Program-made: the position numbers and the translations under genes | Notes under the pieces: generated by a model | Databases searched by the model: none | What the model saw: the letters and a program-made list of their open reading frames with translations, nothing else | Told to the model about the DNA's origin: nothing | Shown here: positions 29,943-49,623 of the stretch, one piece after another | Position numbering within the stretch: the stretch's first letter is position 1 | Layout of the letters: the number at the start of each line of letters is the position of its first letter | Source of the DNA: Escherichia phage APECc02 | Reading direction: 5' to 3' (one strand) | DNA: 64,000 nucleotides | Sequence record: NC_041869.1

Positions 29943-30753
29943 ACCTGGTCTCCAAAATGTATTGTAGTTCTTTCTTACCTATACTCTTCATTCCAGCAGT
30001 CTTACCTGCTTCTTCTTGAAAAGAAGAATAGCATTCAGCAAACACTCTGTCAACACCGTTAACTAAAGATTTTATGAAATATGTTGATTCTTCAGATTTT
30101 GGGTCATCATCCCCCAATACTTTTCCAGCATTATACCCAACACGTCTTACACAGAAGTCGTAGTCATCTGGTGTGCTAAAAGAAAATAACTTATTCTCTC
30201 CAATCTCTACAGGATCCCTATTGCACGCCTTTTTCTCCCAAATTTGGAAAACACATGGCACGTCATAAGGTTTGCCATTAAGTAAAAACGAATTCTTAGG
30301 GCACCTTTCGCTGTAGACAAGGTGCATCGACATGTCCAGTTTGTTTGCAAAAAATATTTTTTCAAATGTCCGTGGCAAGATGAAGGCTATAGCCCCTCCA
30401 AGCTCTAGCAATGATGCACAATGGTTAAAGAATTTGCAAGCTAAGGATGAATTCTTGCCAAATGGTGGGTTACCTATGAAGACATCTGCCTTGGGATGCA
30501 CCTCCAAGAAGTTTGCCTGAATGCACGGTGTTGGTCCTTCAAATTCAGGATCTGGTACTAAATCGTACGACAGTATCTCTGAAAATAGTTTTGAAAAAGA
30601 ACCCCTTCCAGCAGAAGGCTCAACGTATGCACAATTCCCATACTTATCTTTTACTTTACCAACAAGATATTCTGCATACTCAGGGTTTGTGTAGTATTTG
30701 TCGTTGGACTCTTTCTTGCTCAAAGTGCCTCCAAAAGGAAAAGGGAGGCGCAA
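29905..30753 (-). CDS. DNA amino-methyltransferase (N6A or N4C)
   Basis: motif I EPSAGRGSF and motif IV FIGNPPFG. Confidence 0.65.
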   Translation of the reverse strand: MRLPFPFGGTLSKKESNDKYYTNPEYAEYLVGKVKDKYGNCAYVEPSAGRGSFSKLFSEILSYDLVPDPEFEGPTPCIQANFLEVHPKADVFIGNPPFGKNSSLACKFFNHCASLLELGGAIAFILPRTFEKIFFANKLDMSMHLVYSERCPKNSFLLNGKPYDVPCVFQIWEKKACNRDPVEIGENKLFSFSTPDDYDFCVRRVGYNAGKVLGDDDPKSEESTYFIKSLVNGVDRVFAECYSSFQEEAGKTAGMKSIGKKELQYILETRYDQKHRLDQRTY

Positions 30754-30760
30754 GCCTCCC
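30725..30760 (-). terminator. hairpin GGGAGGC-GCAA-GCCTCCC with T-rich tail on minus strand
   Basis: inverted repeat plus TTTTCCTTTT. Confidence 0.5.
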
Positions 30761-30768
30761 TATAATTG

Positions 30769-31752
30769 TTAGATTATCTGAATCAGGGTATTTTTCATTT
30801 CTTCTCTGGTTCGGATGTTGTTACGGTCACGAACAACAGATCCACAACCTTCGCAGCGGTATGTTTTAAATGCACTCAGTTGAGTATACGCCAAAGCTTC
30901 TTCCTCGTGAAGGTGTTCTCCACCACAGCGTGGGCAACGAACTTTTGGCTCCTCATCCTGGTAGTACAATGACATGTTGGGGTGCTGCTTAGCAAACGGG
31001 CGAGCCAGCAAATACAGGCCTTCCAGAGATAGGATATCGCCAACATTGTACTCCCGCATCTGTTTAAACGCCTCAAGATCACCGTGAACACACTTGATCC
31101 ACATTTCAAATGTGTGGTCAATCAGTTTCTGTCGGGCAAGTTGGAAGTATTTGCATGCATACTCCAAAGTGTTTGCATTCAAACGGAATGCCTTCTTGAT
31201 CATTTTAAGGGTGTCAACCTCTTTGTAGGGGCTTGTTGGAGGCAATCCGTGAAATGCAAATCGTTGGTTGGCCCACCCACAGTCAAAACCTGAATTGTGG
31301 GCTACTGCGATATCACATTTATCCAGATAATACCACAAATCCTGAATCAATTCGAGATCATTGTGAATATCCTCATCCCACATTTTGTAATCAGGAAGAG
31401 CGCAGTCAACCACACTAGGACTGTCTAACCACTTACCTGCGAAAGTTAGCATGTAGGGCATAATTTCAATACCGCAGGTTTGAATGTTGGTCTTATAGTG
31501 CCCAAAGAACCAGCCGTTTGTTGGAGATGTCTCTGTATCATACACCCAAACTTTAGCACCTTTGTGCTCTTCAAGGAAACGCTCCGTTGCTTCTCCTACA
31601 ATCTCTGACATATTCTCTTGTGCACGTTTAAGCTGTAGTCGGATCCAGCTCTCACGTGACTCACGGCCTAAAAATTCACGAGCAATTTGTCTATTAGTGT
31701 ATCCCTGTTGCTTTAGTGTTAAAATTTGCTCAAGAGTTAACTTTGTCATCAT
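30769..31752 (-). CDS. DnaQ-like 3'-5' exonuclease domain protein with N-terminal HTH-like and C-terminal zinc ribbon
   Basis: VWVYDTETS acidic motif, later H/D residues, CPRCGG...CEGCG. Confidence 0.4.
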   Translation of the reverse strand: MMTKLTLEQILTLKQQGYTNRQIAREFLGRESRESWIRLQLKRAQENMSEIVGEATERFLEEHKGAKVWVYDTETSPTNGWFFGHYKTNIQTCGIEIMPYMLTFAGKWLDSPSVVDCALPDYKMWDEDIHNDLELIQDLWYYLDKCDIAVAHNSGFDCGWANQRFAFHGLPPTSPYKEVDTLKMIKKAFRLNANTLEYACKYFQLARQKLIDHTFEMWIKCVHGDLEAFKQMREYNVGDILSLEGLYLLARPFAKQHPNMSLYYQDEEPKVRCPRCGGEHLHEEEALAYTQLSAFKTYRCEGCGSVVRDRNNIRTREEMKNTLIQII

Positions 31753-31764
31753 CGTTAAGATTCC

Positions 31765-31986
31765 TTAGTAAAACTGAAGAATGTCTTTTAAAGCGAAGTC
31801 ACGATATTCGCCCTTGTCTACATCGAAGGCACGCATCAACCACTGCTCTTCTTTATGATACTCTGTAGAGCCAAACCATAAATTAGGCTCAGTAACGCAG
31901 CGATCTGCAACAACACCTTTCCAGTTACGGTATTTCATCCTGATCAGGACTGAGTCGCAAGGATTGAATACCTTTTTCATCCCCAT
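31765..31986 (-). CDS. hypothetical small protein
   Basis: ORF co-oriented. Confidence 0.4.
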   Translation of the reverse strand: MGMKKVFNPCDSVLIRMKYRNWKGVVADRCVTEPNLWFGSTEYHKEEQWLMRAFDVDKGEYRDFALKDILQFY

Positions 31987-32530
31987 AGAAATCTCTCTCC
32001 TCAGTTTTCTTTATAAACTCCTGCATGTAGGACTCAATAGCCTCATGCTTGGTGCACTCTGGATTAATGACAAGATTGAGATCTGATTCTGCTCGTGCAA
32101 TGATCGTAGCTTTAGAGCATCTCCTCAAGAACTTTGTCATATCATCTCTGTAGTTTTTGTGGAGCGGGAAGTCGCTGTAGTCTTTCTCCAAATAGTCAGC
32201 CATCCGGCGCAACGCCTCTGATAAACTGCAATCTGTATACTCGTTACAGTATTTCATCCAGTATTTAAGCACATACCCCTCAAAGGTATTAGTGCATTGT
32301 GACAAAACACCCCTGCAACGACCAGTCAGATGGTCATGATCCAAACAAGGCTTACGAAGTGGCTCGCACAAGATCGGATCAAGACCATCCTGCTCCTCTG
32401 ACAATTCTTTTCGAAAGTTGGCTATGTCCTTAGAATCTTTTAACCACCCGTTATGAACGGGGGCTTTGACAGCTTTCTTTCTTATTTTACGCTTTGCGAT
32501 AATCCCTCCAGATGCGCCCTGCCTATCCAA
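31925..32530 (-). CDS. recombination endonuclease VII (T4 gp49-like)
   Basis: C-x2-C...LDHDH..G..RG.L..C.N motif and C-terminal similarity to T4 Endo VII. Confidence 0.65.
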   Translation of the reverse strand: MDRQGASGGIIAKRKIRKKAVKAPVHNGWLKDSKDIANFRKELSEEQDGLDPILCEPLRKPCLDHDHLTGRCRGVLSQCTNTFEGYVLKYWMKYCNEYTDCSLSEALRRMADYLEKDYSDFPLHKNYRDDMTKFLRRCSKATIIARAESDLNLVINPECTKHEAIESYMQEFIKKTEERDFYGDEKGIQSLRLSPDQDEIP

Positions 32531-33111
32531 TAAGCATCTGCGAGATCGGCCTTACCTTGTACCAAATTGATCCCATCTAGGAACCCAGGTTCAGATACTT
32601 CGCAGGCCTTAACCATCAACTTTTTATCCATCGTAACAGGTTTCTTCACAGTATGCTCTTTACCTGTCTTTTTGTCAAGCTTTTTCTTCTCCTCGAAAGC
32701 AAGTTCCTCAGGAAGATGACTACGAGCAAACTTTTTGGCAGTTGTTGGTGTCACTGTGTGGACCTTAAACAGGCCGTCATTTTCACAATCGGCTAAGGCA
32801 TCCCAAAGCATAACTTCAAGACCGTAAAACAACCCAGCCAGTTCACGTGTGGCATCCCCGCGTGATCCAAAGGAAAGCCCTTCCATAACTACGGTGTCAA
32901 CGCCGTGCGTGTGGATATAATATCTGACCTGTTTGCAGATCCAGTCAATACGCTCAGCAGCTGTTGCAAAAGAAACCGTCCCTGGTTTCTTCTCTTTTGC
33001 AGATGAGCTTTGAGTTCGTAACACAACCTTATGAACAGGCTTTCCATCGTCCCATACAACGCAAGCTGTGTGCGTCAACGACTGGTCTATGGATAATAGA
33101 CGCTCTCTCAT
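32482..33111 (-). CDS. RuvC-like Holliday junction resolvase
   Basis: LSIDQSL..ACVV, VVMEG, DAYWIGRAH mirror RuvC catalytic D/E/D/H layout. Confidence 0.5.
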   Translation of the reverse strand: MRERLLSIDQSLTHTACVVWDDGKPVHKVVLRTQSSSAKEKKPGTVSFATAAERIDWICKQVRYYIHTHGVDTVVMEGLSFGSRGDATRELAGLFYGLEVMLWDALADCENDGLFKVHTVTPTTAKKFARSHLPEELAFEEKKKLDKKTGKEHTVKKPVTMDKKLMVKACEVSEPGFLDGINLVQGKADLADAYWIGRAHLEGLSQSVK

Positions 33112-33443
33112 GCTTCTTCGTCCTCCTCTCCTTCATCAGGAGCGTAAGCCTTATCTTTGAACAAGACGAGAGAGCAAAGCTTAACATCTGTTTCCACACT
33201 GGTGAACATGCATAACCGCTCGCCCTCAATCAGCTCACAATCCTCTTTTAAAACAGCAGACCATACACGGTCATCTGCGTAATCATCCGTGTACAGGATG
33301 TATGAAATGGTGTCATCTTCATACAACCGCCACATACCTGTGGCAACAACGAATGTATTTTTTGTTTTAAGTGTCCCTGTTGTGTGATCATCCTCAAAAA
33401 CAGCTTCCATAATTGCGTTATCTACAGAATTTTTAGTCATCAA
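33108..33443 (-). CDS. hypothetical protein
   Basis: ORF co-oriented. Confidence 0.45.
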   Translation of the reverse strand: MMTKNSVDNAIMEAVFEDDHTTGTLKTKNTFVVATGMWRLYEDDTISYILYTDDYADDRVWSAVLKEDCELIEGERLCMFTSVETDVKLCSLVLFKDKAYAPDEGEEDEEA

Positions 33444-34579
33444 ATTGCTCCAACATTTCTAAGAACGTTAACAAGTTTTGTTTGATCATTGAATGTTCGC
33501 TTCATATACAAACAGTCAAAAATTATACTCATCCATTGACCTACGGAAATTCTACGATCAATACCATTGAAGTCAGTATACTTAACAACACCTTTCGGGA
33601 ACCACTTCTTGTACTGATCAATAATAGCCATCCACATCTCCTTTGGAGTGCTGCACTGAGACAGTAGGTAGAATGCTGAGGCATCTCCGAACTTACCCTT
33701 ACCGATAAGTCCCTGATACGGCTTGATGTTGTCAGCAGAGTCACCACACAGCATTTGGTATCCGAAGAACAGCATTCCGTAACCACCAACCTCTCCATTA
33801 GGCTTCATGAAGATGTTCCCCATACCGTTATCGATCAGCATAGGGGTTTCCCTTACAAAATCTCCCTTATCGTTTCGCATGGGATCGAACACAAGCCCCG
33901 GTAGTGTTCTTTGGTCCTTATCAATAGAGATAATAAACTTGTTGAACTTACCTGTTTTTTGGTAGTGGTTCCAACCTTCAAATTGCTGGATAGCTAACCA
34001 GTCATCAGCCTCGATACCGTTGATCACTTGAGCATTATACTGCTTTTGGAGATACTGTCTTGCATCTCCAAGCAGCAGTGGTCGAAGAGTATTGTTACGG
34101 TTGGCTTTGTATCTTTCCGGCATTGGAAGATCTAGTCTGAAGTTACCTGTGCCTCCCAACACCCCGACACATCGCTCTTCCGGAATACCAAGATAGTTAA
34201 GAACTGCATTTGCCTTACATTTTATTGTGTGCAAGCAGTTCTCTACAGGGTCAGGTGTTTGGATATCCAAGACATCAAAATCTTCACGTGTCCACGGAAT
34301 AAACTCCTTACCAGACTTTTTACATGCGGCTTCACGGTTGGTATTCTCAGCTTTTAGCCAACCACCAACGGTGTTCTTCTGACGCCCCCAGAACTCTGTT
34401 CGTGTTTTAAACATCTTCTTACGTCCGGAGGCTTTGTGTGTTACCTCAATTGTCCTTTTTTCACAACTTGCTGCAGCTTGATATGCAACCTGATCGAAGT
34501 CATAATAAACTATAGCGTCAGGTTCAAGAAGATCAGCCAGACAATCTATGGACTCAATAAGTGGATATTCTCTACTCAA
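33440..34579 (-). CDS. 5'-3' exonuclease / flap endonuclease (RNase H-like)
   Basis: YKANR and GIEADD motifs typical of FEN/5'-exo family. Confidence 0.6.
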   Translation of the reverse strand: MSREYPLIESIDCLADLLEPDAIVYYDFDQVAYQAAASCEKRTIEVTHKASGRKKMFKTRTEFWGRQKNTVGGWLKAENTNREAACKKSGKEFIPWTREDFDVLDIQTPDPVENCLHTIKCKANAVLNYLGIPEERCVGVLGGTGNFRLDLPMPERYKANRNNTLRPLLLGDARQYLQKQYNAQVINGIEADDWLAIQQFEGWNHYQKTGKFNKFIISIDKDQRTLPGLVFDPMRNDKGDFVRETPMLIDNGMGNIFMKPNGEVGGYGMLFFGYQMLCGDSADNIKPYQGLIGKGKFGDASAFYLLSQCSTPKEMWMAIIDQYKKWFPKGVVKYTDFNGIDRRISVGQWMSIIFDCLYMKRTFNDQTKLVNVLRNVGAI

Positions 34580-34880: not shown

Positions 34881-34914
34881 ACCTAGTTCTCCTAGTTTAT
34901 AGATATCTGACCGA

Positions 34915-34944
34915 TAATATCAGATTAATAACACTTTTGTCAAG
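34915..34944 (-). promoter_or_regulatory. sigma70-type promoter on minus strand (TTGACA-N18-TATTAT)
   Basis: plus-strand ATAATA 34915-34920 and TGTCAA 34939-34944. Confidence 0.5.
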
Positions 34945-35233
34945 ACTTTTTAGTCTTTCTTGGAGAGCTTTTTGTTGATCTTTTCCTTTTGTGGTAGATT
35001 CCAAGTGCAGCGTTTTCTTGGGCGCACGTTTTAACAGTTCTCAGACAAGAGCTTTCAGCTTTAGGCAGGTTTAACTCCCACCAACCAAGCCAGTAAAGTT
35101 CTGATTCAGACAACTGCTCAGATTCAGCCTTCCGATACAAGGCTTGCATACCTCTGATGATATCGTCCAGAGGTGTATCGAATACAAAAGCTGTCTTATC
35201 GAATTTCTCTTTTACAGATCTCTTAGCCATCAA
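34940..35233 (-). CDS. hypothetical protein
   Basis: ORF co-oriented. Confidence 0.45.
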   Translation of the reverse strand: MMAKRSVKEKFDKTAFVFDTPLDDIIRGMQALYRKAESEQLSESELYWLGWWELNLPKAESSCLRTVKTCAQENAALGIYHKRKRSTKSSPRKTKKS

Positions 35234-35687
35234 GGTAACCCTCTATCCACGAAAAGTCAGTCTTCCATTCTGGAACTTTACTAAGCTCGCGCCACTCTGC
35301 AAAGCAGTCTCGGTAATACGCCTCTGCCATACCTCTGGTGATCTTATTCACCTTAGCCAACTGATTAACTGCCTGAGCATACTTTCCACGGATATTTGCT
35401 AATCCAGGATGTACCGATGTGTGACAATCTGGGCACAACGCTATCAGTCCGACAAGCCGGATCACTCCCTCTTCGAAAGTGTAAAGTTCATGACACTCCA
35501 CTGGATGTTTGCTGCCTTTACCGCCGCACACCTCGCAAGTGTAGTTTGCCTCTCTGTAGCACTTCTTACGGATCTTATCCCACTCACTCTTCTTCACAGC
35601 GTTTCGGAGGTTATTATACCAAGCTGTTTCTGGGATCAGTTGCACAATAAGCCTGCGTTCAGACCTCATTAAACGTCCGTCTTCCAC
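35223..35687 (-). CDS. zinc-binding protein, possible HNH-type nuclease
   Basis: CEVCGG..H..ECH...CPDCH cysteine/histidine pattern. Confidence 0.35.
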   Translation of the reverse strand: MEDGRLMRSERRLIVQLIPETAWYNNLRNAVKKSEWDKIRKKCYREANYTCEVCGGKGSKHPVECHELYTFEEGVIRLVGLIALCPDCHTSVHPGLANIRGKYAQAVNQLAKVNKITRGMAEAYYRDCFAEWRELSKVPEWKTDFSWIEGYLDG

Positions 35688-45259: not shown

Positions 45260-45334
45260 GCCCTGTTAGCTTAGTGGATAAAGCAGCGGCCTTCTAAGCC
45301 GTTGACACTGGTTCGAGTCCAGTACGGGGTGCCA
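45260..45334 (+). tRNA. tRNA-Arg (anticodon TCT), CCA encoded
   Basis: cloverleaf folded by hand: 7-bp acceptor, anticodon loop CTTCTAA, GTTCGAGTC T-loop. Confidence 0.75.
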
Positions 45335-45338
45335 AATT

Positions 45339-45425
45339 GGGGAGTTATCCCGTAGAGGTAGCGGTGTAGACTGTAAATCTATTGTCATTGCGACTCGGGT
45401 GGTTCGACTCCACCACTCCCCACCA
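45339..45425 (+). tRNA. tRNA-Tyr (anticodon GTA), long variable arm
   Basis: anticodon arm AGACTGTAAATCT identical to bacterial tRNA-Tyr; acceptor pairs; CCA encoded. Confidence 0.8.
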
Positions 45426-45539
45426 AATTTACATTTTTAAATGCATAAATCATACAGATAATGGCATTGATATTTATCGTCGTTTATACTAGTCACTAAC
45501 TGCTCGAAAATCAGTGTCATTATCAGTATTGTTTATAAA

Positions 45540-45630
45540 TGAGGGTAGGGAGCAATGGTGCTCAAGCGGTCTTGAAAACCGTCCCGTTGAGGATGACTCG
45601 ATGATGGTTCGATTCCATTACCCTCAGCCA
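45540..45630 (+). tRNA. tRNA-Ser (anticodon TGA), long variable arm
   Basis: anticodon loop CTTGAAA, long variable arm, T-loop TTCGATT; 5' boundary uncertain by 1 nt. Confidence 0.65.
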
Positions 45631-45728
45631 TATTGTTGACCTTGTAATTAAGCGAAAGCCGGAAGCAGAACCGGATTATCAAATGTTACAGTCGTCATCG
45701 CCGACTAGCAACATGGTCAACATACTGA

Positions 45729-45825
45729 GCTAGGTAAGCCCTTTGGCAAGGGCGAGGATTTTTAATCCTGAAAATAGACGAGGTAGTCGTTGAATACATA
45801 GGTGGTTCGATTCCATCACCTAGCA
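45729..45825 (+). ncRNA. atypical tRNA-like element (acceptor and T-arm intact; possible TTT anticodon; ~31-nt variable region)
   Basis: GCTAGGT/ACCTAGC acceptor pairing and GGTTCGATTCC T-arm, but non-canonical middle. Confidence 0.3.
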
Positions 45826-45832
45826 CCTTTTT

Positions 45833-45908
45833 GCTGATGTAGCACAATTGGTAGTGCAATTGATTTGTAATCAATAGGTTGCAGGTTCGAGTCCTGCTAT
45901 CAGCACCA
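45833..45908 (+). tRNA. tRNA-Thr (anticodon TGT), CCA encoded
   Basis: acceptor GCTGATG, D-arm GCAC..GTGC, anticodon loop TTTGTAA. Confidence 0.75.
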
Positions 45909-45909
45909 T

Positions 45910-45984
45910 GGCCCTGTAGCTGGAAGGTTCAAGCAAGCGACTCATAATCGCCAGACGGTGGTTCAATTCCACCCAGGGCCACCA
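45910..45984 (+). tRNA. tRNA-Met or Ile2 (anticodon CAT), CCA encoded
   Basis: acceptor GGCCCTG/CAGGGCC, anticodon loop CTCATAA. Confidence 0.75.
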
Positions 45985-45995
45985 AATAATAAATA

Positions 45996-46072
45996 CTCCG
46001 CGTAGCTCAGCTTGGTAGAGCGCCTGATTTGGGATCAGGAGGTCGAGTGTTCGAATCACTCCGTGGAGACCA
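45996..46072 (+). tRNA. tRNA-Pro (anticodon TGG), CCA encoded
   Basis: canonical D-arm TAGCTCAGCTTGGTAGAGC, anticodon loop TTTGGGA. Confidence 0.75.
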
Positions 46073-46900: not shown

Positions 46901-47184
46901 GAGTTGCTACACTGTTTATTGCGTGCTTGTTATTATGTGGGTGTGCAACCAGCGTTGAGAGAGAATACAAGATTGACCCTCCGGATGTAGGAAGGTTGAT
47001 TGTTAAACCCCCGGAAGGTGCCATGAAACCACCTGCTAAAGCTATGCCTTTGAAGAAAGGTGCTCCAGATGCAGTAAATTCTGGCATTATGAGGGATAAT
47101 AATTTGTCTTGTAGCAATGATAGAGCTAAATTGATCATTTTGCAAGACTATATTAGAACACTGTTTCCAAAGGAGAGAGGTTAA
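46897..47184 (+). CDS. o-spanin-like outer membrane lipoprotein
   Basis: lipobox-like LLLCGC after signal sequence, Pro-rich mature region. Confidence 0.55.
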   Translation: MRVATLFIACLLLCGCATSVEREYKIDPPDVGRLIVKPPEGAMKPPAKAMPLKKGAPDAVNSGIMRDNNLSCSNDRAKLIILQDYIRTLFPKERG

Positions 47185-47618
47185 TGTCTAAGATTTCTAA
47201 GATTTACGGACCGTGTTCTGAAAAGCAGAAGATGATCCTCGAAAACGATGCAGATATTTTGGTAATCGGCGGTGCCGCAGGGTCTGGCAAGTCGTTCCTC
47301 TTGCAGTTGATGCCGCTTAAAATTATTGATGACCCACACAGCTCTGTGGTTATGTTCCGAAGAACAACCCCGCAGTTGGAAGGTGAGGGTGGACTATGGC
47401 CTAAAGCAGTAGCTATTTATAGTGATCTGCCTGAAAACATTAAGCCAAAGTTTAGAGAGAAGGATCATAAGTTCATTTTTCCACGGTTTGATCCGAGCAC
47501 TGGCAAGTGGGATAGAAGCAAAAAGGGAGCTGTTGTAAAATACTGCCACATGGAGTATGTACAAGATAAGCTTAACCATCAGGGGCTTGAGTACACCATG
47601 GTTTGCTTCGATGAGGGT
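47184..47618 (+). CDS. terminase large subunit, exon 1 (ATPase Walker A to Walker B)
   Basis: Walker A VIGGAAGSGKSF; reading frame ends at MVCFDEG then TAA at inferred intron start. Confidence 0.7.
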
Positions 47619-47668
47619 TAATTTGTAGCTCTCGTAAAACCTCCCTAATTGCGGGGAAATCTTTATTA

Positions 47669-47697
47669 TTGACACCACCAACCTGTTATGGTAACAT
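47669..47697 (+). promoter_or_regulatory. sigma70-type promoter inside intron (TTGACA-N17-TAACAT)
   Basis: hexamers read directly, upstream of intron ORF. Confidence 0.45.
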
Positions 47698-47836
47698 AAT
47701 AGAGGCTTCGAAGAGAGATCGAAGGTATGGTAACAGTGTGTTAATTTAGATAATCCGCAGCGAAGCATCCGAGAGGATGAACGTTCAACGACTAGTCGAA
47801 AGACGTAGAATCAAGCGATTCGAAACGGGAGGGTGA

Positions 47837-48427
47837 ATGTGTAATACTAAAAAATGTATGGATTGCCAAAGAGTTCTGCCTATTGATGATTTCTTTTTAT
47901 CATCTAAGAGCAAGGATGGATACTCAGGTACATGCAAGGAATGCTATATGTACTACAGGAAGGGTGGATCTCGTAAAAACAAAAATATGGTTAAGAGAGA
48001 TGACGCAGCATTGTTTATTCAAGACTTGCTGAAGAAAGGTGAACTTTTTGAATGCAAATCTTGTCATGAAAGTATGCTCGCTGATAGTTTTTACACAAAA
48101 CGTGACTATGGTAAAGTATATCTGGTTACGAACAGGTGTAAGATGTGTGAAAAGTTTTATCAGATTGAGAAGAAATTTCACATAACAAAAGATGAATACT
48201 ATCGTCTACTCTCAGATCAAGATCATAAGTGTGCCATTTGTAGAATATCTCTTAATGAGTATAGGACGCAAGGGTACAGAGATTTCTTTTGTGTTGATCA
48301 TGACCATAAAACTGGTGCTGTAAGAGGGTTGCTTTGTGATAAATGCAACAGAGCTTTAGGTTTCTTCCAAGAAGATGAGGAAACTATTCTTAGAGCGGCA
48401 GAGTATTTACACATTCATAAGATATAG
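47837..48427 (+). CDS. Endo VII-like HNH homing endonuclease (intron-encoded)
   Basis: CAICRISL...CVDHDHKTGAVRGLLCDKCNRALGFF matches T4 Endo VII zinc/HNH motif. Confidence 0.7.
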   Translation: MCNTKKCMDCQRVLPIDDFFLSSKSKDGYSGTCKECYMYYRKGGSRKNKNMVKRDDAALFIQDLLKKGELFECKSCHESMLADSFYTKRDYGKVYLVTNRCKMCEKFYQIEKKFHITKDEYYRLLSDQDHKCAICRISLNEYRTQGYRDFFCVDHDHKTGAVRGLLCDKCNRALGFFQEDEETILRAAEYLHIHKI

Positions 48428-48501
48428 TCTGGTCTGCATGGAGACATGCAGCTGCCTGAAAATGGCGGGGCAAGACTAGCGACCTTGCCCGAACATAAAC
48501 G

Positions 48502-49623
48502 ACACAGTTCGAATGGGAGCAGATAGACTATCTGATGTCTCGTCTGCGATCTCAGTCAAAGTATCCATCAAGAATGGTTATCAGCTGTAACCCTGATTCA
48601 GAACACATGCTTGCCAAACTGGTTAGGTGGTGGTTGGACGATGAAGGGTATCCAGATCCGGAGAAATGTGGTAAGAAAAGGTATTTTATCAGGCGTGACG
48701 GTGAATTTATCTGGGGAGACTCTAAAGAGGAGTTGATAGAGAAATACACCACGGTTAACGGACTGGGTGTGGAGATCAAGCCAAGACCGTTGTCATTCTC
48801 GTTTATAGGCGCAACAATATTCGATAATCCTGTCTGCTTGAGAGACAACCCAGAATACCTTGCTTTCCTTGAAGGTCTGCCTGAGCTTGAAAAAGCCCAG
48901 CTTCTTCATGGTAACTGGTTTGCAAAGCCTGAGGGTGCAAACTATTTTCAAAGATCTTTCCTTCGTGATGCCGATAGAGTACCTCTTGGATCAGTGTCTT
49001 GCAGGGCATGGGATAAAGCAGGAACCGAGAGAACTTCCGGTAATAAATTTCCTGACTTTACCGCCAGTGTCAAGGTAAGTAAAGATAGCGACGGCTTTTA
49101 TTACCTGTCCGGGGATTATTGTCCTGAGAACGTGGATGACGGGAGGTATTCCACAGGTCTGGAAGGCAAGTTCTGTAAAAAGGCTGGTGAACGAGATGTG
49201 ATCATCAGGAAACAGGCGCAGTTTGATGGTGATGATTGTATAATCGTATTCTCTGTGGACCCCGGTCAGGCAGGTAAGAGTGAGTTCTTAACCTCCTCCA
49301 GATCCTTGCTTGCCGAAGGGTTTAGGGTTGAAGAAGACCCAATGCCTTCCAACAAATCTAAACTGACAAGGTTCTCACCTTTTGCCAATCTTGCCCAACA
49401 AGGAATGGTGAGGATTGTAAAATCCAGTTTCCATCCTGATACTCTGGAAGCATTTCTGACTGAACTTGAAAAATTCAACGGGGAAAGATCAACATTTAAC
49501 AGAAAAGACGACTGGGCCGACTGTGTAGCTTCTGCGATTAATTTCCTGGAGAAAGAGGAGGTAGCACTTCCTTGTGTGATTCCATCAATCTCATCACCTT
49601 CTATGTTCAAGCGTTTTATCTAA
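48502..49623 (+). CDS. terminase large subunit, exon 2 (nuclease domain)
   Basis: frame open from 48499; contiguous with exon 1 if intron removed; exact 5' boundary inferred. Confidence 0.6.
   Translation, partial: TQFEWEQIDYLMSRLRSQSKYPSRMVISCNPDSEHMLAKLVRWWLDDEGYPDPEKCGKKRYFIRRDGEFIWGDSKEELIEKYTTVNGLGVEIKPRPLSFSFIGATIFDNPVCLRDNPEYLAFLEGLPELEKAQLLHGNWFAKPEGANYFQRSFLRDADRVPLGSVSCRAWDKAGTERTSGNKFPDFTASVKVSKDSDGFYYLSGDYCPENVDDGRYSTGLEGKFCKKAGERDVIIRKQAQFDGDDCIIVFSVDPGQAGKSEFLTSSRSLLAEGFRVEEDPMPSNKSKLTRFSPFANLAQQGMVRIVKSSFHPDTLEAFLTELEKFNGERSTFNRKDDWADCVASAINFLEKEEVALPCVIPSISSPSMFKRFI

What the first reader, a model, noticed from the sequence alone, without database searches (positions are those of the whole stretch)
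31925..33111. Two different junction-resolving nucleases encoded side by side
An Endo VII (gp49-like) gene overlaps the start of a RuvC-like resolvase gene, and a third Endo VII-like HNH copy sits in the terminase intron. Having both resolvase types is unusual; one may have been repurposed, for example as a homing endonuclease or for debranching before packaging.
Basis: partly seen in the sequence, partly recalled or inferred. Interest (0 to 1): 0.4.

Follow-up and report, generated by a model that had tools for sequence, protein, structure and literature searches.

The report
Two resolvase genes in rV5-like phage
An rV5-like E. coli phage carries two intact, unrelated DNA-junction-cutting enzymes as neighbouring genes, a pairing conserved across its whole phage group and already annotated, whose newer details are that the Endo VII copy has no zinc site and probably starts at a rare AUC codon.

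Summary
The window is a Vequintavirus (rV5/slur16-like coliphage, 99.6% identical to phage JohannBauhin). On the minus strand, a RuvC-fold nuclease gene (33111..32482) sits directly upstream of a T4 gp49-type Endo VII gene (32530..31925). Both keep their catalytic residues and both are under purifying selection. A third Endo VII-motif gene (47837..48427) lies inside a mobile group I intron (47619..48501) that splits the large terminase gene.

Resolvase families usually replace one another in phages, so carrying both is atypical. Here, though, the pair is a fixed ancestral feature: all 119 Vequintavirus records have it, as do 24 of 31 more distant loci. Some GenBank records already name both genes. 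Neither gene looks repurposed as a homing endonuclease; the intron copy is the homing enzyme, and that is published.

Two details appear to be little noted:
- The resolvase-type Endo VII has lost the four structural zinc cysteines across its whole subfamily.
- Comparative evidence suggests it starts not at the annotated TTG but at a conserved AUC after a Shine-Dalgarno site inside the end of the RuvC-like gene. That would give weak, coupled expression.

Interest is modest.

The parts
32482..33111 (-). RuvC-fold nuclease gene (209 aa). Catalytic tetrad D9, E77, D189, D192. Carries a basic beta-hairpin insertion of about 30 aa (roughly residues 135-160) that short relatives lack.
   Evidence: phrog_159 at 3.3e-39. 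E77, D189 and D192 are invariant and D9 nearly invariant in 24 relatives. AF2 pLDDT 91.8. Top Foldseek hits are Tth, Dr, Pa and Ec RuvC and phage bIL67 RuvC.
31925..32530 (-). Endo VII (T4 gp49-type) gene as annotated, 201 aa from TTG 32530. The probable true start is ATC 32500, giving 191 aa. Catalytic D64, H65, H67, R73, N81, E84. No zinc cysteines. Has a K/R-rich N-terminal extension and a C-terminal helical domain like T4 Endo VII.
   Evidence: Pfam PF02945 at 31.6 bits and phrog_423 at 2.7e-37. Aligns to T4 residues 37-153. Column counts. AF2 pLDDT 86.6; T4 Endo VII is the only confident PDB match.
32498..32509 (-). Shine-Dalgarno GGAGGG (32509..32504), then ATT, then the conserved ATC (32500..32498). 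This is the proposed non-canonical start of Endo VII, 16 nt before the RuvC-like stop codon TAA (32484..32482).
   Evidence: Sequence read. The same arrangement occurs in 10 of 11 diverged lineages, with ATA in one. GTG, ATG or TTG occupies the same position in lineages where Endo VII is separated from RuvC-like. PVP-SE1 gene 126 is annotated from this ATC.
33440..34579 (-). 5'-3' (FEN/T5 D15-like) exonuclease gene, 379 aa, upstream in the same gene string.
   Evidence: phrog_107 'exonuclease' at 1.5e-71. Annotated as putative 5'-exonuclease.
33108..33443 (-). 111-aa gene of unknown function. Its stop overlaps the RuvC-like start as ATGA.
   Evidence: phrog_7583 at 6.4e-57, no known function. 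Junction sequence.
31765..31986 (-). 73-aa gene of unknown function (weak WYL_2/SH3-like hit). It overlaps the last 62 nt of the Endo VII ORF.
   Evidence: phrog_3715 at 2.6e-26; Pfam WYL_2 only at E 0.021. Sequence.
30769..31752 (-). DnaQ-like 3'-5' exonuclease gene, 327 aa, the last gene of the string.
   Evidence: phrog_403 at 6.1e-111. Annotation.
34914..34943 (-). Promoter-like site (TTGACA, 18-nt spacer, TATTAT, extended -10 TG) upstream of the gene string. Consensus match only.
   Evidence: 11 of 12 matches.
30742..30761 (-). Terminator-like hairpin (8 bp, 6 G-C pairs, T-rich tail) just after the DnaQ-like gene. Consensus match only.
47184..47618 (+). Large terminase exon 1. It ends just after the Walker B sequence VCFDEG, and its last base is T.
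   Evidence: phrog_9526 and phrog_979. Junction defined against the intron-less allele L043.
47619..48501 (+). Mobile group I intron, 883 nt, last base G.
   Evidence: Rfam RF00028 at 46.3 bits, E 3.9e-10, below the gathering score of 50. Vequintavirus records show three states: intron-less, intron without the ORF, and intron with the ORF. Terminase introns are published for rV5 (PMC3606486).
47837..48427 (+). Intron-encoded homing endonuclease of the Endo VII-motif (DHHRN) family, 196 aa. It keeps all four zinc cysteines, has an N-terminal zinc-ribbon region, and lacks the resolvase C-terminal domain.
   Evidence: PF02945 at 76.7 bits. Column counts. Best PDB sequence match is Hpy99I over residues 57-192. 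A JES-2013 intron-encoded protein (gp64) was placed in the published 'endonuclease clade'; the JES2013 record carries this intron with an 'endonuclease VII' ORF.
48502..49623 (+). Large terminase exon 2.
   Evidence: phrog_979 at 2.4e-146. Junction.

Best explanation
The flagged region is part of a tightly packed minus-strand gene string in an rV5-like coliphage. The order is 5'-exonuclease, a 111-aa unknown, RuvC-like, Endo VII, a 73-aa unknown, then DnaQ-like exonuclease. It encodes two separate, catalytically competent, structure-selective DNA nucleases of unrelated folds.

Shown:
- The RuvC-like protein has the RuvC fold and the D-E-D-D tetrad.
- The Endo VII protein has the gp49 architecture: an N-terminal catalytic motif followed by a C-terminal helical domain. 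It keeps all catalytic residues and has lost the four structural-zinc cysteines.
- The tandem pair is ancestral and conserved across the rV5-like super-group of phages. Both genes are under purifying selection.

Inferred:
- Both enzymes cut branched replication and recombination intermediates. They probably divide the work by substrate, with Holliday junction resolution by the RuvC-type enzyme. The promiscuous Endo VII would do broad debranching, mismatch cutting and rescue of stalled packaging, as in T4.
- Endo VII is most likely translated from a conserved AUC codon 4 nt after a GGAGG Shine-Dalgarno site inside the end of the RuvC-like gene. Its synthesis would therefore be weak and coupled to RuvC-like translation.

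For: Identity of the genes.

Catalytic residues:
- RuvC-like: E77, D189 and D192 are invariant and D9 nearly invariant across 24 relatives reaching down to Pfam-RuvC-positive proteins.
- Endo VII: the equivalents of T4 D40, H41, H43, R54, N62 and E65 are present in 22 of 22 clade members. D, H, H, R and N are present in at least 144 of the 150 closest 50%-cluster representatives.

Purifying selection: 65 synonymous versus 10 non-synonymous codon differences in RuvC-like, and 42 versus 12 in Endo VII, window against L006.

Conserved pairing:
- 119 of 119 Vequintavirus records.
- 24 of 31 IMG/VR loci with RuvC-like at 35% identity or more have Endo VII within 1.3 kb downstream.
- The same order occurs in Vibrio phages S4-7 and 5P1b, Aeromonas phiA009, SSBI34, CB7 and PVP-SE1.

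AUC start:
- The stretch between the RuvC-like stop and the first canonical start is coding in the Endo VII frame. Pairwise differences by codon position are 0, 10 and 40, with 36 synonymous versus 10 non-synonymous.
- Most lineages have no ATG, GTG or TTG upstream of it.
- GGAGG followed 4-6 nt later by ATC, usually then GCN, is conserved.
- GTG or ATG occupies that exact position in lineages with an independent start.
- Three lineages have TAATC or TAATA stop-start overlaps.
- PVP-SE1 gene 126 is annotated from the ATC.
- AUC initiates at about 1-2% of AUG in E. coli (bioRxiv 10.1101/063800).

T4 Endo VII releases packaging motors stalled on branched DNA (PMC9958956). Phage RuvC enzymes are promiscuous branch nucleases (PMC3864405).
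Against: - No biochemistry exists for either protein.
[quoted passage not shown] Activity of a zinc-less version is therefore inferred from conservation only.
- The window's RuvC-like protein has no Pfam RuvC hit, and its family profile reaches PDB RuvC only at E 0.2.
- Both genes lie in one early/middle-type gene string, far from the packaging genes, so no difference in timing supports a division of labour.
- In this genus a TTG start 30 nt upstream of the ATC is also open and conserved, so the AUC start is not proven for this particular genome.
- The 4-nt spacing between the Shine-Dalgarno site and ATC is short.
- Some relatives carry RuvC-like without an adjacent Endo VII (L013, L016, L027), so the pairing is not obligatory.
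Confidence: 0.68

Rival explanations
1. One of the two enzymes no longer resolves junctions and has another job. For example, the RuvC-like protein could act as an RNase H-type primer remover or fork nickase in replication. Alternatively, the zinc-less Endo VII could work as a mismatch, host-DNA or anti-defence nuclease.
For: - HJ resolvase families are usually mutually exclusive in phages (PMC7824862), so redundancy needs explaining.
- Several GenBank records call the RuvC-like gene 'RNaseH'.
- It sits among replication exonucleases.
- It carries a roughly 30-aa insertion absent from short RuvC relatives.
- Endo VII has lost its zinc site and gained a basic N-terminal tail.
Against: - The best fold matches are RuvC resolvases, not RNase H.
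- The positions of the tetrad (strand 1, strand 4, C-terminal helix D-x-x-D-A) follow the RuvC pattern.
- Endo VII keeps the resolvase-type architecture with its C-terminal domain, and rV5 gp97 falls in the published resolvase clade.
- The 'RNaseH' labels are transferred annotations, not tests.
Confidence: 0.2
2. The two ORFs are joined by a programmed -1 ribosomal frameshift into one RuvC-Endo VII fusion protein. The conserved GGAGG would act as a frameshift stimulator, as in dnaX.
For: - Endo VII is in the -1 frame relative to RuvC-like in all enterobacterial loci.
- Most lineages lack a canonical start.
- L006 has a perfect G_GGT_TTA heptamer in the RuvC-like frame.
Against: - No slippery heptamer is conserved. 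The window has G_GGA_TTA.
- Vibrio phage S4-7 has the +1 frame relation.
- In L031 the Endo VII frame opens only one codon before the ATC.
- Lineages with an intervening gene make Endo VII separately, from GTG or ATG at the homologous N-terminus behind the same Shine-Dalgarno site.
Confidence: 0.04
3. The Endo VII gene is a decaying or catalytically dead relic because its structural zinc site is gone. Only the RuvC-like enzyme is the working resolvase.
For: - None of 22 clade members has Cys at the T4 C26, C58 or C61 positions.
- T4 C23S and C61S mutants are inactive (PMC6083498).
- The Pfam score is low, 31.6 bits against 76.7 for the intron copy.
Against: - All catalytic residues are invariant in 22 of 22.
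- There are 42 synonymous versus 12 non-synonymous differences.
- 133 of the 150 closest 50%-identity cluster representatives share the zinc-less state while keeping D/H/H/R/N. This is a long-lived subfamily, not a pseudogene.
- The model is confident through the former zinc region, with pLDDT 94-98 over residues 41-80.
Confidence: 0.06
4. One gene of the adjacent pair is itself a free-standing homing endonuclease.
For: Endo VII-motif proteins include homing endonucleases (PMC6083498). Free-standing HNH genes occur nearby, for example at 35223..35687.
Against: - There is no presence/absence polymorphism: both genes are present in all 119 Vequintavirus records at fixed synteny and in distant genera.
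- The motif is N-terminal and followed by the resolvase C-terminal domain. Published homing enzymes carry the motif at the C-terminus.
Confidence: 0.02

Closest known systems
Phage T4 endonuclease VII (gp49)
   Same: - Same fold: T4 Endo VII is the only confident PDB match.
- Same order of domains: N-terminal catalytic motif, then C-terminal helical domain, aligned to T4 residues 37-153.
- D40, H41, H43, R54, N62 and E65 equivalents are all present.
   Different: - None of the four zinc-binding cysteines (C23, C26, C58, C61) is retained.
- It has an extra K/R-rich N-terminal extension of about 25 aa.
- Sequence identity is only about 26%.
- It is probably started from AUC and embedded in the upstream RuvC-like gene.
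- It is encoded in a replication-nuclease gene string.
Lactococcal phage bIL67 RuvC and bacterial RuvC
   Same: - RNase H-like RuvC fold (Foldseek probability 1.0; TM 0.70-0.78 normalised to the target).
- Four acidic residues at equivalent positions: bIL67 D8, E71, D145, D149 (PMC3864405) against D9, E77, D189, D192 here.
- No RuvAB partner is encoded beside it.
   Different: - Only 12-17% identity.
- No Pfam RuvC hit for this protein itself.
- A basic beta-hairpin insertion of about 30 aa before the last helices.
- Paired with a second resolvase gene.
F-CphI / DHHRN homing endonucleases and restriction enzyme Hpy99I (for the intron copy)
   Same: - Endo VII catalytic motif at the C-terminus, with the CxxC...CxxC zinc site intact.
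- Best PDB sequence match is Hpy99I.
- Located inside a group I intron, like the intron-encoded members listed in PMC6083498, which include a protein of phage JES-2013.
   Different: Nothing substantive. The JES2013 record matches this intron plus ORF over the full query at 98.0% DNA identity. The insertion site is the terminase Walker B region rather than psbA or the DNA polymerase gene.
Lambdoid phages encoding both Rap and a RusA-type resolvase (from general knowledge, not tested here)
   Same: A precedent for one phage carrying two branch-specific nucleases of unrelated folds.
   Different: Different enzyme families. Those genes sit in the nin region and are not translationally coupled.

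Membership tests
Endonuclease VII (Pfam PF02945; T4 gp49 resolvase type) | Significant match to the family profile | tested here: met
   31.6 bits against a cut-off of 23.6; phrog_423 at 2.7e-37.
Endonuclease VII (Pfam PF02945; T4 gp49 resolvase type) | Catalytic residues D40, H41, H43, N62 (plus R54, E65) | tested here: met
   D64, H65, H67, R73, N81, E84. Present in 22 of 22 clade members.
Endonuclease VII (Pfam PF02945; T4 gp49 resolvase type) | Structural zinc site CX2-4C ... CX2C (T4 C23, C26, C58, C61) | tested here: not met
   The window has D51, L54, S77 and T80. None of 22 clade members has Cys at three of the positions, and 4 of 22 at the fourth. 133 of the 150 closest representatives have at most one Cys at these positions.
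Endonuclease VII (Pfam PF02945; T4 gp49 resolvase type) | C-terminal helical dimerisation domain | tested here: met
   Aligns to T4 residues up to 153. The model has helices at 87-178. Dimer formation itself was not tested.
Endonuclease VII (Pfam PF02945; T4 gp49 resolvase type) | Cleavage of four-way junctions and other branched DNA | not testable with these tools
   Needs purified protein and synthetic junctions.
RuvC resolvase (Pfam PF02075) | Significant match to the family profile | tested here: inconclusive
   The window protein has no hit at E up to 1. Four of 24 aligned relatives hit RuvC, best E-value 1.8e-6. The family profile reaches D. radiodurans RuvC only at E 0.2.
RuvC resolvase (Pfam PF02075) | RuvC-type RNase H-like fold | tested here: met
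   pLDDT 91.8. The top 13 Foldseek PDB hits are all RuvC proteins, E down to 2.8e-8.
RuvC resolvase (Pfam PF02075) | Four catalytic carboxylates (E. coli D7, E66, D138, D141) | tested here: met
   D9, E77, D189, D192. Three are invariant and D9 is nearly invariant in 24 sequences.
RuvC resolvase (Pfam PF02075) | Homodimer making paired nicks across a Holliday junction | not testable with these tools
   Needs biochemistry or a multimer model.
Group I intron (Rfam RF00028) | Covariance-model match at the gathering score | tested here: inconclusive
   46.3 bits against a gathering score of 50; E 3.9e-10; the full model length is matched.
Group I intron (Rfam RF00028) | Precise insertion in a conserved gene, 5' exon ending in U, intron ending in G, reading frame restored on removal | tested here: met
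   The intron-less allele L043 defines 47619..48501. Exon 1 ends in T and the intron ends in G. Exons of 435 and 1122 nt give an in-frame terminase of 518 aa. Self-splicing was not tested.
DHHRN (Endo VII-motif) homing endonuclease | D, H, H, R, N motif at the C-terminus, encoded in a mobile element with presence/absence polymorphism | tested here: met
   Motif and cysteines. Pfam match at residues 110-192 of 196. 28 records carry the intron with the ORF, others the intron without it, and most are intron-less. Cleavage of the intron-less allele was not tested.

The most novel reading that the evidence does not exclude
In rV5-like phages the gp49-type resolvase is a zinc-independent Endo VII. 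Its translation starts at an evolutionarily conserved AUC (AUA in one lineage) codon embedded in, or sharing a UAAUC overlap with, the end of the RuvC-like gene. The phage would thus make its two resolvases from one message in a fixed and very unequal ratio. If so, this would be a conserved natural AUC start in a coliphage (only two non-canonical starts, both AUU, are confirmed in E. coli itself) and a built-in dosage control for a toxic, promiscuous nuclease.
Probability: 0.45. Interest if true: 0.55.

Novelty: new variant of a known kind. Interest (0 to 1): 0.35.

Why it matters
If both enzymes are active, rV5-like phages offer a natural system for asking why a virus keeps two unrelated junction-resolving nucleases. 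Most phages make do with one. The question is whether the reason is substrate specialisation, backup, or rescue of stalled packaging. These phages are numerous, easy to grow and used in phage-therapy collections.

A zinc-less Endo VII subfamily would show that the zinc knuckle, essential in T4, is dispensable for this fold.

A conserved AUC start coupled to the upstream gene would add a rare, comparatively well-supported case of non-canonical initiation. It also explains why public records disagree on this gene's start.

None of this changes how the two enzyme families are understood, so the overall importance is modest.

Tried and rejected
- **Annotated TTG start (32530).** It lies within the conserved RuvC-like 'ADAYWIG' coding sequence and has no Shine-Dalgarno site. 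A 95%-identical relative (L006) has an in-frame stop just after it. Rejected as the ancestral start, but not excluded for this genus.
- **-1 frameshift fusion.** No conserved slippery site, opposite frame relation in a Vibrio phage, and separate genes in other lineages.
- **Sequence-only links of the RuvC-like protein.** Pfam found nothing, phmmer against PDB gave only noise, and the family profile against PDB was weak at E 0.2. The fold search settled it.
- **Codon-position test on L007, L015 and L008.** L008 was out of register, so only the Seunavirus-like group result is used.
- **Second half.** A search string picked the wrong Endo VII start in L009, so that part is ignored.
- **Genomic context of distant Endo VII representatives.** P0100 is on a 1-kb contig and P0081 sits at a contig end next to SbcCD-like genes. 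Both are uninformative about an upstream RuvC-like gene.
- **Phage tRNA(CAT) at 45910..45984 as a special initiator.** It has a G1:C72 pair, so it is not an initiator type.
- **First structure job.** The typed T4 sequence was later verified as identical to PDB 1e7d/1en7.
Full report
**What the window is.** The 3.6 kb around the finding is 99.6% identical to Escherichia phage JohannBauhin. It is at least 90% identical to 119 records of rV5-like phages, genus Vequintavirus. Public annotation lists the same ORFs.

**Checking the observation.** Two minus-strand ORFs occupy 31925..32530 (201 aa) and 32482..33111 (209 aa).
- The first hits Pfam Endonuclease_7 at 31.6 bits (cut-off 23.6) and phrog_423. 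It aligns with T4 Endo VII residues 37-153, which includes the C-terminal helical domain.
- The second has no Pfam hit but matches phrog_159 'RuvC-like Holliday junction resolvase' at 3.3e-39.
- Thirty-three database relatives were found for the second ORF. The shortest carry Pfam RuvC.
- In an alignment of 24 of them, E77, D189 and D192 are invariant and D9 nearly so.
- The AlphaFold model of the second ORF (pLDDT 91.8) finds RuvC from Thermus, Deinococcus, Pseudomonas, E. coli and lactococcal phage bIL67 as its 13 best PDB matches, with E down to 2.8e-8. In bIL67 RuvC the catalytic residues are D8, E71, D145 and D149 (PMC3864405), the same layout.
- The Endo VII model (pLDDT 86.6) matches only T4 Endo VII with confidence.

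Window versus L006 gives 65 synonymous against 10 non-synonymous codon differences for RuvC-like, and 42 against 12 for Endo VII.

**The third copy.** The large terminase gene is split into 47184..47621 and 48535..49623, with a 196-aa Endonuclease_7 ORF (76.7 bits) between them.
- Rfam reports a full-length group I intron match at 46.3 bits, E 3.9e-10, just under the gathering score.
- Comparison with the intron-less allele of phage EmilHeitz places the intron at 47619..48501. It follows the Walker B sequence VCFDEG. Exon 1 ends in T and the intron ends in G.
- Vequintavirus records show three states: intron-less (the majority), intron without the ORF (for example JohannBauhin and slur16), and intron with the ORF (28 records).
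- The ORF keeps all four zinc cysteines and D/H/H/R/N. Its best PDB sequence match is restriction enzyme Hpy99I.
- This is published. Terminase introns were reported for rV5 (PMC3606486). An intron-encoded protein of phage JES-2013 (gp64) was placed in the 'endonuclease clade' of Endo VII-motif proteins, while rV5 gp97 fell in the 'resolvase clade' (PMC6083498). The JES2013 genome record matches this intron plus ORF over the whole query.

**Is the pairing unusual?** In general, yes. A comparative study of jumbo phages found Endo VII and RuvC in a 'nearly complementary pattern' (PMC7824862). In this lineage, no.
- All 119 Vequintavirus records carry both genes.
- Of 31 IMG/VR loci whose RuvC-like protein is at least 35% identical, 24 have an Endo VII homologue within 1.3 kb downstream, and one is cut off by the contig end.
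- The same order (5'-exonuclease ... RuvC-like, Endo VII) occurs in Seunavirus, Certrevirus, SSBI34, Aeromonas phiA009 and Vibrio phages S4-7 and 5P1b.
- More distant RuvC-like genes, such as those of N4-like phages, stand alone. So do a few closer ones.
- Some GenBank records already name both genes. I found no paper that discusses the pair.

**Zinc site.** T4 Endo VII binds a structural zinc through C23, C26, C58 and C61, and C23S and C61S mutants are inactive (PMC6083498).
- The window protein has D51, L54, S77 and T80 at these positions.
- Among 22 clade members, none has Cys at three of the positions and 4 have it at the fourth. D40, H41, H43, R54, N62 and E65 equivalents are 22 of 22.
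- A profile search of 1.84 billion representatives found 366 proteins at E up to 1e-10. Of the best 150, 133 have at most one Cys at the four positions, and 11 have all four.

The zinc-less form is therefore a large, long-lived subfamily rather than a decaying gene.

**Where Endo VII translation starts.** The annotated TTG (32530) has no Shine-Dalgarno site. It lies within the conserved RuvC-like 'ADAYWIG' coding sequence and is followed by an in-frame stop in the close relative L006. The comparative evidence points elsewhere:
- Across diverged lineages the Endo VII frame stays open upstream of any ATG, GTG or TTG and encodes a conserved basic N-terminus.
- In the Seunavirus-like group, the stretch between the RuvC-like stop and the first GTG differs at codon positions 1, 2 and 3 by 0, 10 and 40. 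That is 36 synonymous against 10 non-synonymous changes, versus 0/39 and 8/33 in the other two frames. The stretch is therefore translated.
- A GGAGG or GGGGG element followed 4-6 nt later by ATC (ATA in one lineage), usually then GCN, is present in all 11 lineages examined. In three lineages the codon shares its A with the RuvC-like stop (TAATC or TAATA).
- Where another gene separates the pair, GTG, ATG or TTG sits at the same position behind the same Shine-Dalgarno site.
- PVP-SE1 gene 126 is deposited with this ATC as its start. Other records use the TTG or a downstream TTG.
- AUC supports about 1-2% of AUG initiation in E. coli, and only two non-canonical starts, both AUU, are confirmed there.

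In the window, the Shine-Dalgarno site is 32509..32504, the ATC is 32500..32498, and the RuvC-like stop is 32484..32482. A -1 frameshift fusion was considered and judged unlikely (see rival explanations).

**Context.** PHROG matches identify the neighbours as a 5'-exonuclease, two small unknowns and a DnaQ-like exonuclease. A promoter-like site at 34943..34914 and a terminator-like hairpin at 30761..30742 bracket the string, though these are consensus matches only. Gene junctions are overlapping or tight, for example ATGA at 33111. The rest of the minus-strand block encodes nucleotide-metabolism enzymes and a ligase.

**Mechanism.**
- Shown: there are two intact nuclease genes of the RuvC and Endo VII folds, an ancestral tandem arrangement, and an Endo VII coding region that extends upstream of any canonical start.
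- Inferred: both enzymes cut branched DNA made during replication and recombination. Endo VII may also free packaging motors stalled on branches, as in T4 (PMC9958956). Endo VII is made at a low level from AUC, coupled to RuvC-like translation.
- How the work is divided between the two enzymes is unknown.

**Verdict.** The pair is an ordinary, conserved and already annotated feature of a well-sampled phage group. Two under-noticed variants attach to it: a zinc-less Endo VII and its likely AUC start. Interest 0.35.

Noticed in passing
window 32498..32530 (-); L052 2094..2096; L046-L048: Public records give three different starts for the same Endo VII gene. JohannBauhin, FV3 and JEP1 use a TTG 49 nt inside RuvC-like. 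EPFV3-03/2025 uses a downstream start (CDS about 159 aa). PVP-SE1 gene 126 uses ATC. Comparative evidence favours the ATC.
   Followed up: yes
L007, L015 and L031, at the RuvC-like/Endo VII junction: The stop and start overlap as TAATC or TAATA. The RuvC-like UAA shares its last A with AUC or AUA, which is the classic UAAUG coupling motif with a non-AUG codon.
   Followed up: partly
window 31925..32530 (-) and 150 database representatives (P0070, P0082-P0230): Zinc-less Endo VII is a large subfamily. 133 of the 150 closest 50%-identity cluster representatives have at most one Cys at the four T4 zinc positions while keeping D/H/H/R/N.
   Followed up: partly
window 32482..33111 (-), residues about 135-160: The RuvC-like protein carries a lysine-rich beta-hairpin insertion of about 30 aa (LPEELAFEEKKKLDKKTGKEHTVKKPVTMDKK). 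Short relatives that hit Pfam RuvC lack it. Its role is unknown; it could contribute to DNA binding.
   Followed up: no
window 47619..48501 (+): The terminase intron exists in three allelic states among near-identical phages: absent, present without the endonuclease ORF, and present with it. rV5 itself has the gene in three pieces with a different HNH gene. This looks like a textbook homing-cycle snapshot.
   Followed up: partly
window 45260..46072 (+): A cluster of seven tRNA genes. The element at 45729..45827 is 99 nt long, with an odd 4-nt anticodon call (Rfam tRNA 35.5 bits). The tRNA(CAT) at 45910..45984 has a G1:C72 pair, so it is not an initiator; it may be an elongator Met or an Ile2-type tRNA.
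   Followed up: partly
window 35223..35687 (-): A free-standing HNH endonuclease gene (phrog_5200 at 1.6e-72), annotated as a putative homing endonuclease in BASEL phages. It is another mobile nuclease close to the nuclease gene string.
   Followed up: no
window 31925..31986 (-): The last 20 or so residues of Endo VII have low model confidence and are absent from most relatives. They overlap the start of the next gene (73 aa) by 62 nt.
   Followed up: no
phage database records MG0656xx: About 20 records named 'Campylobacter phage' with host C. jejuni are 98-100% identical to E. coli rV5-like phages across these genes. The host labels look doubtful.
   Followed up: no
L018, L019, L022, L025, L049, L050, L056: In Certrevirus-like and SSBI34-like phages, a gene of about 190-215 aa with unknown function is inserted between RuvC-like and Endo VII. 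Endo VII then has a canonical GTG or ATG start behind the same Shine-Dalgarno site.
   Followed up: partly
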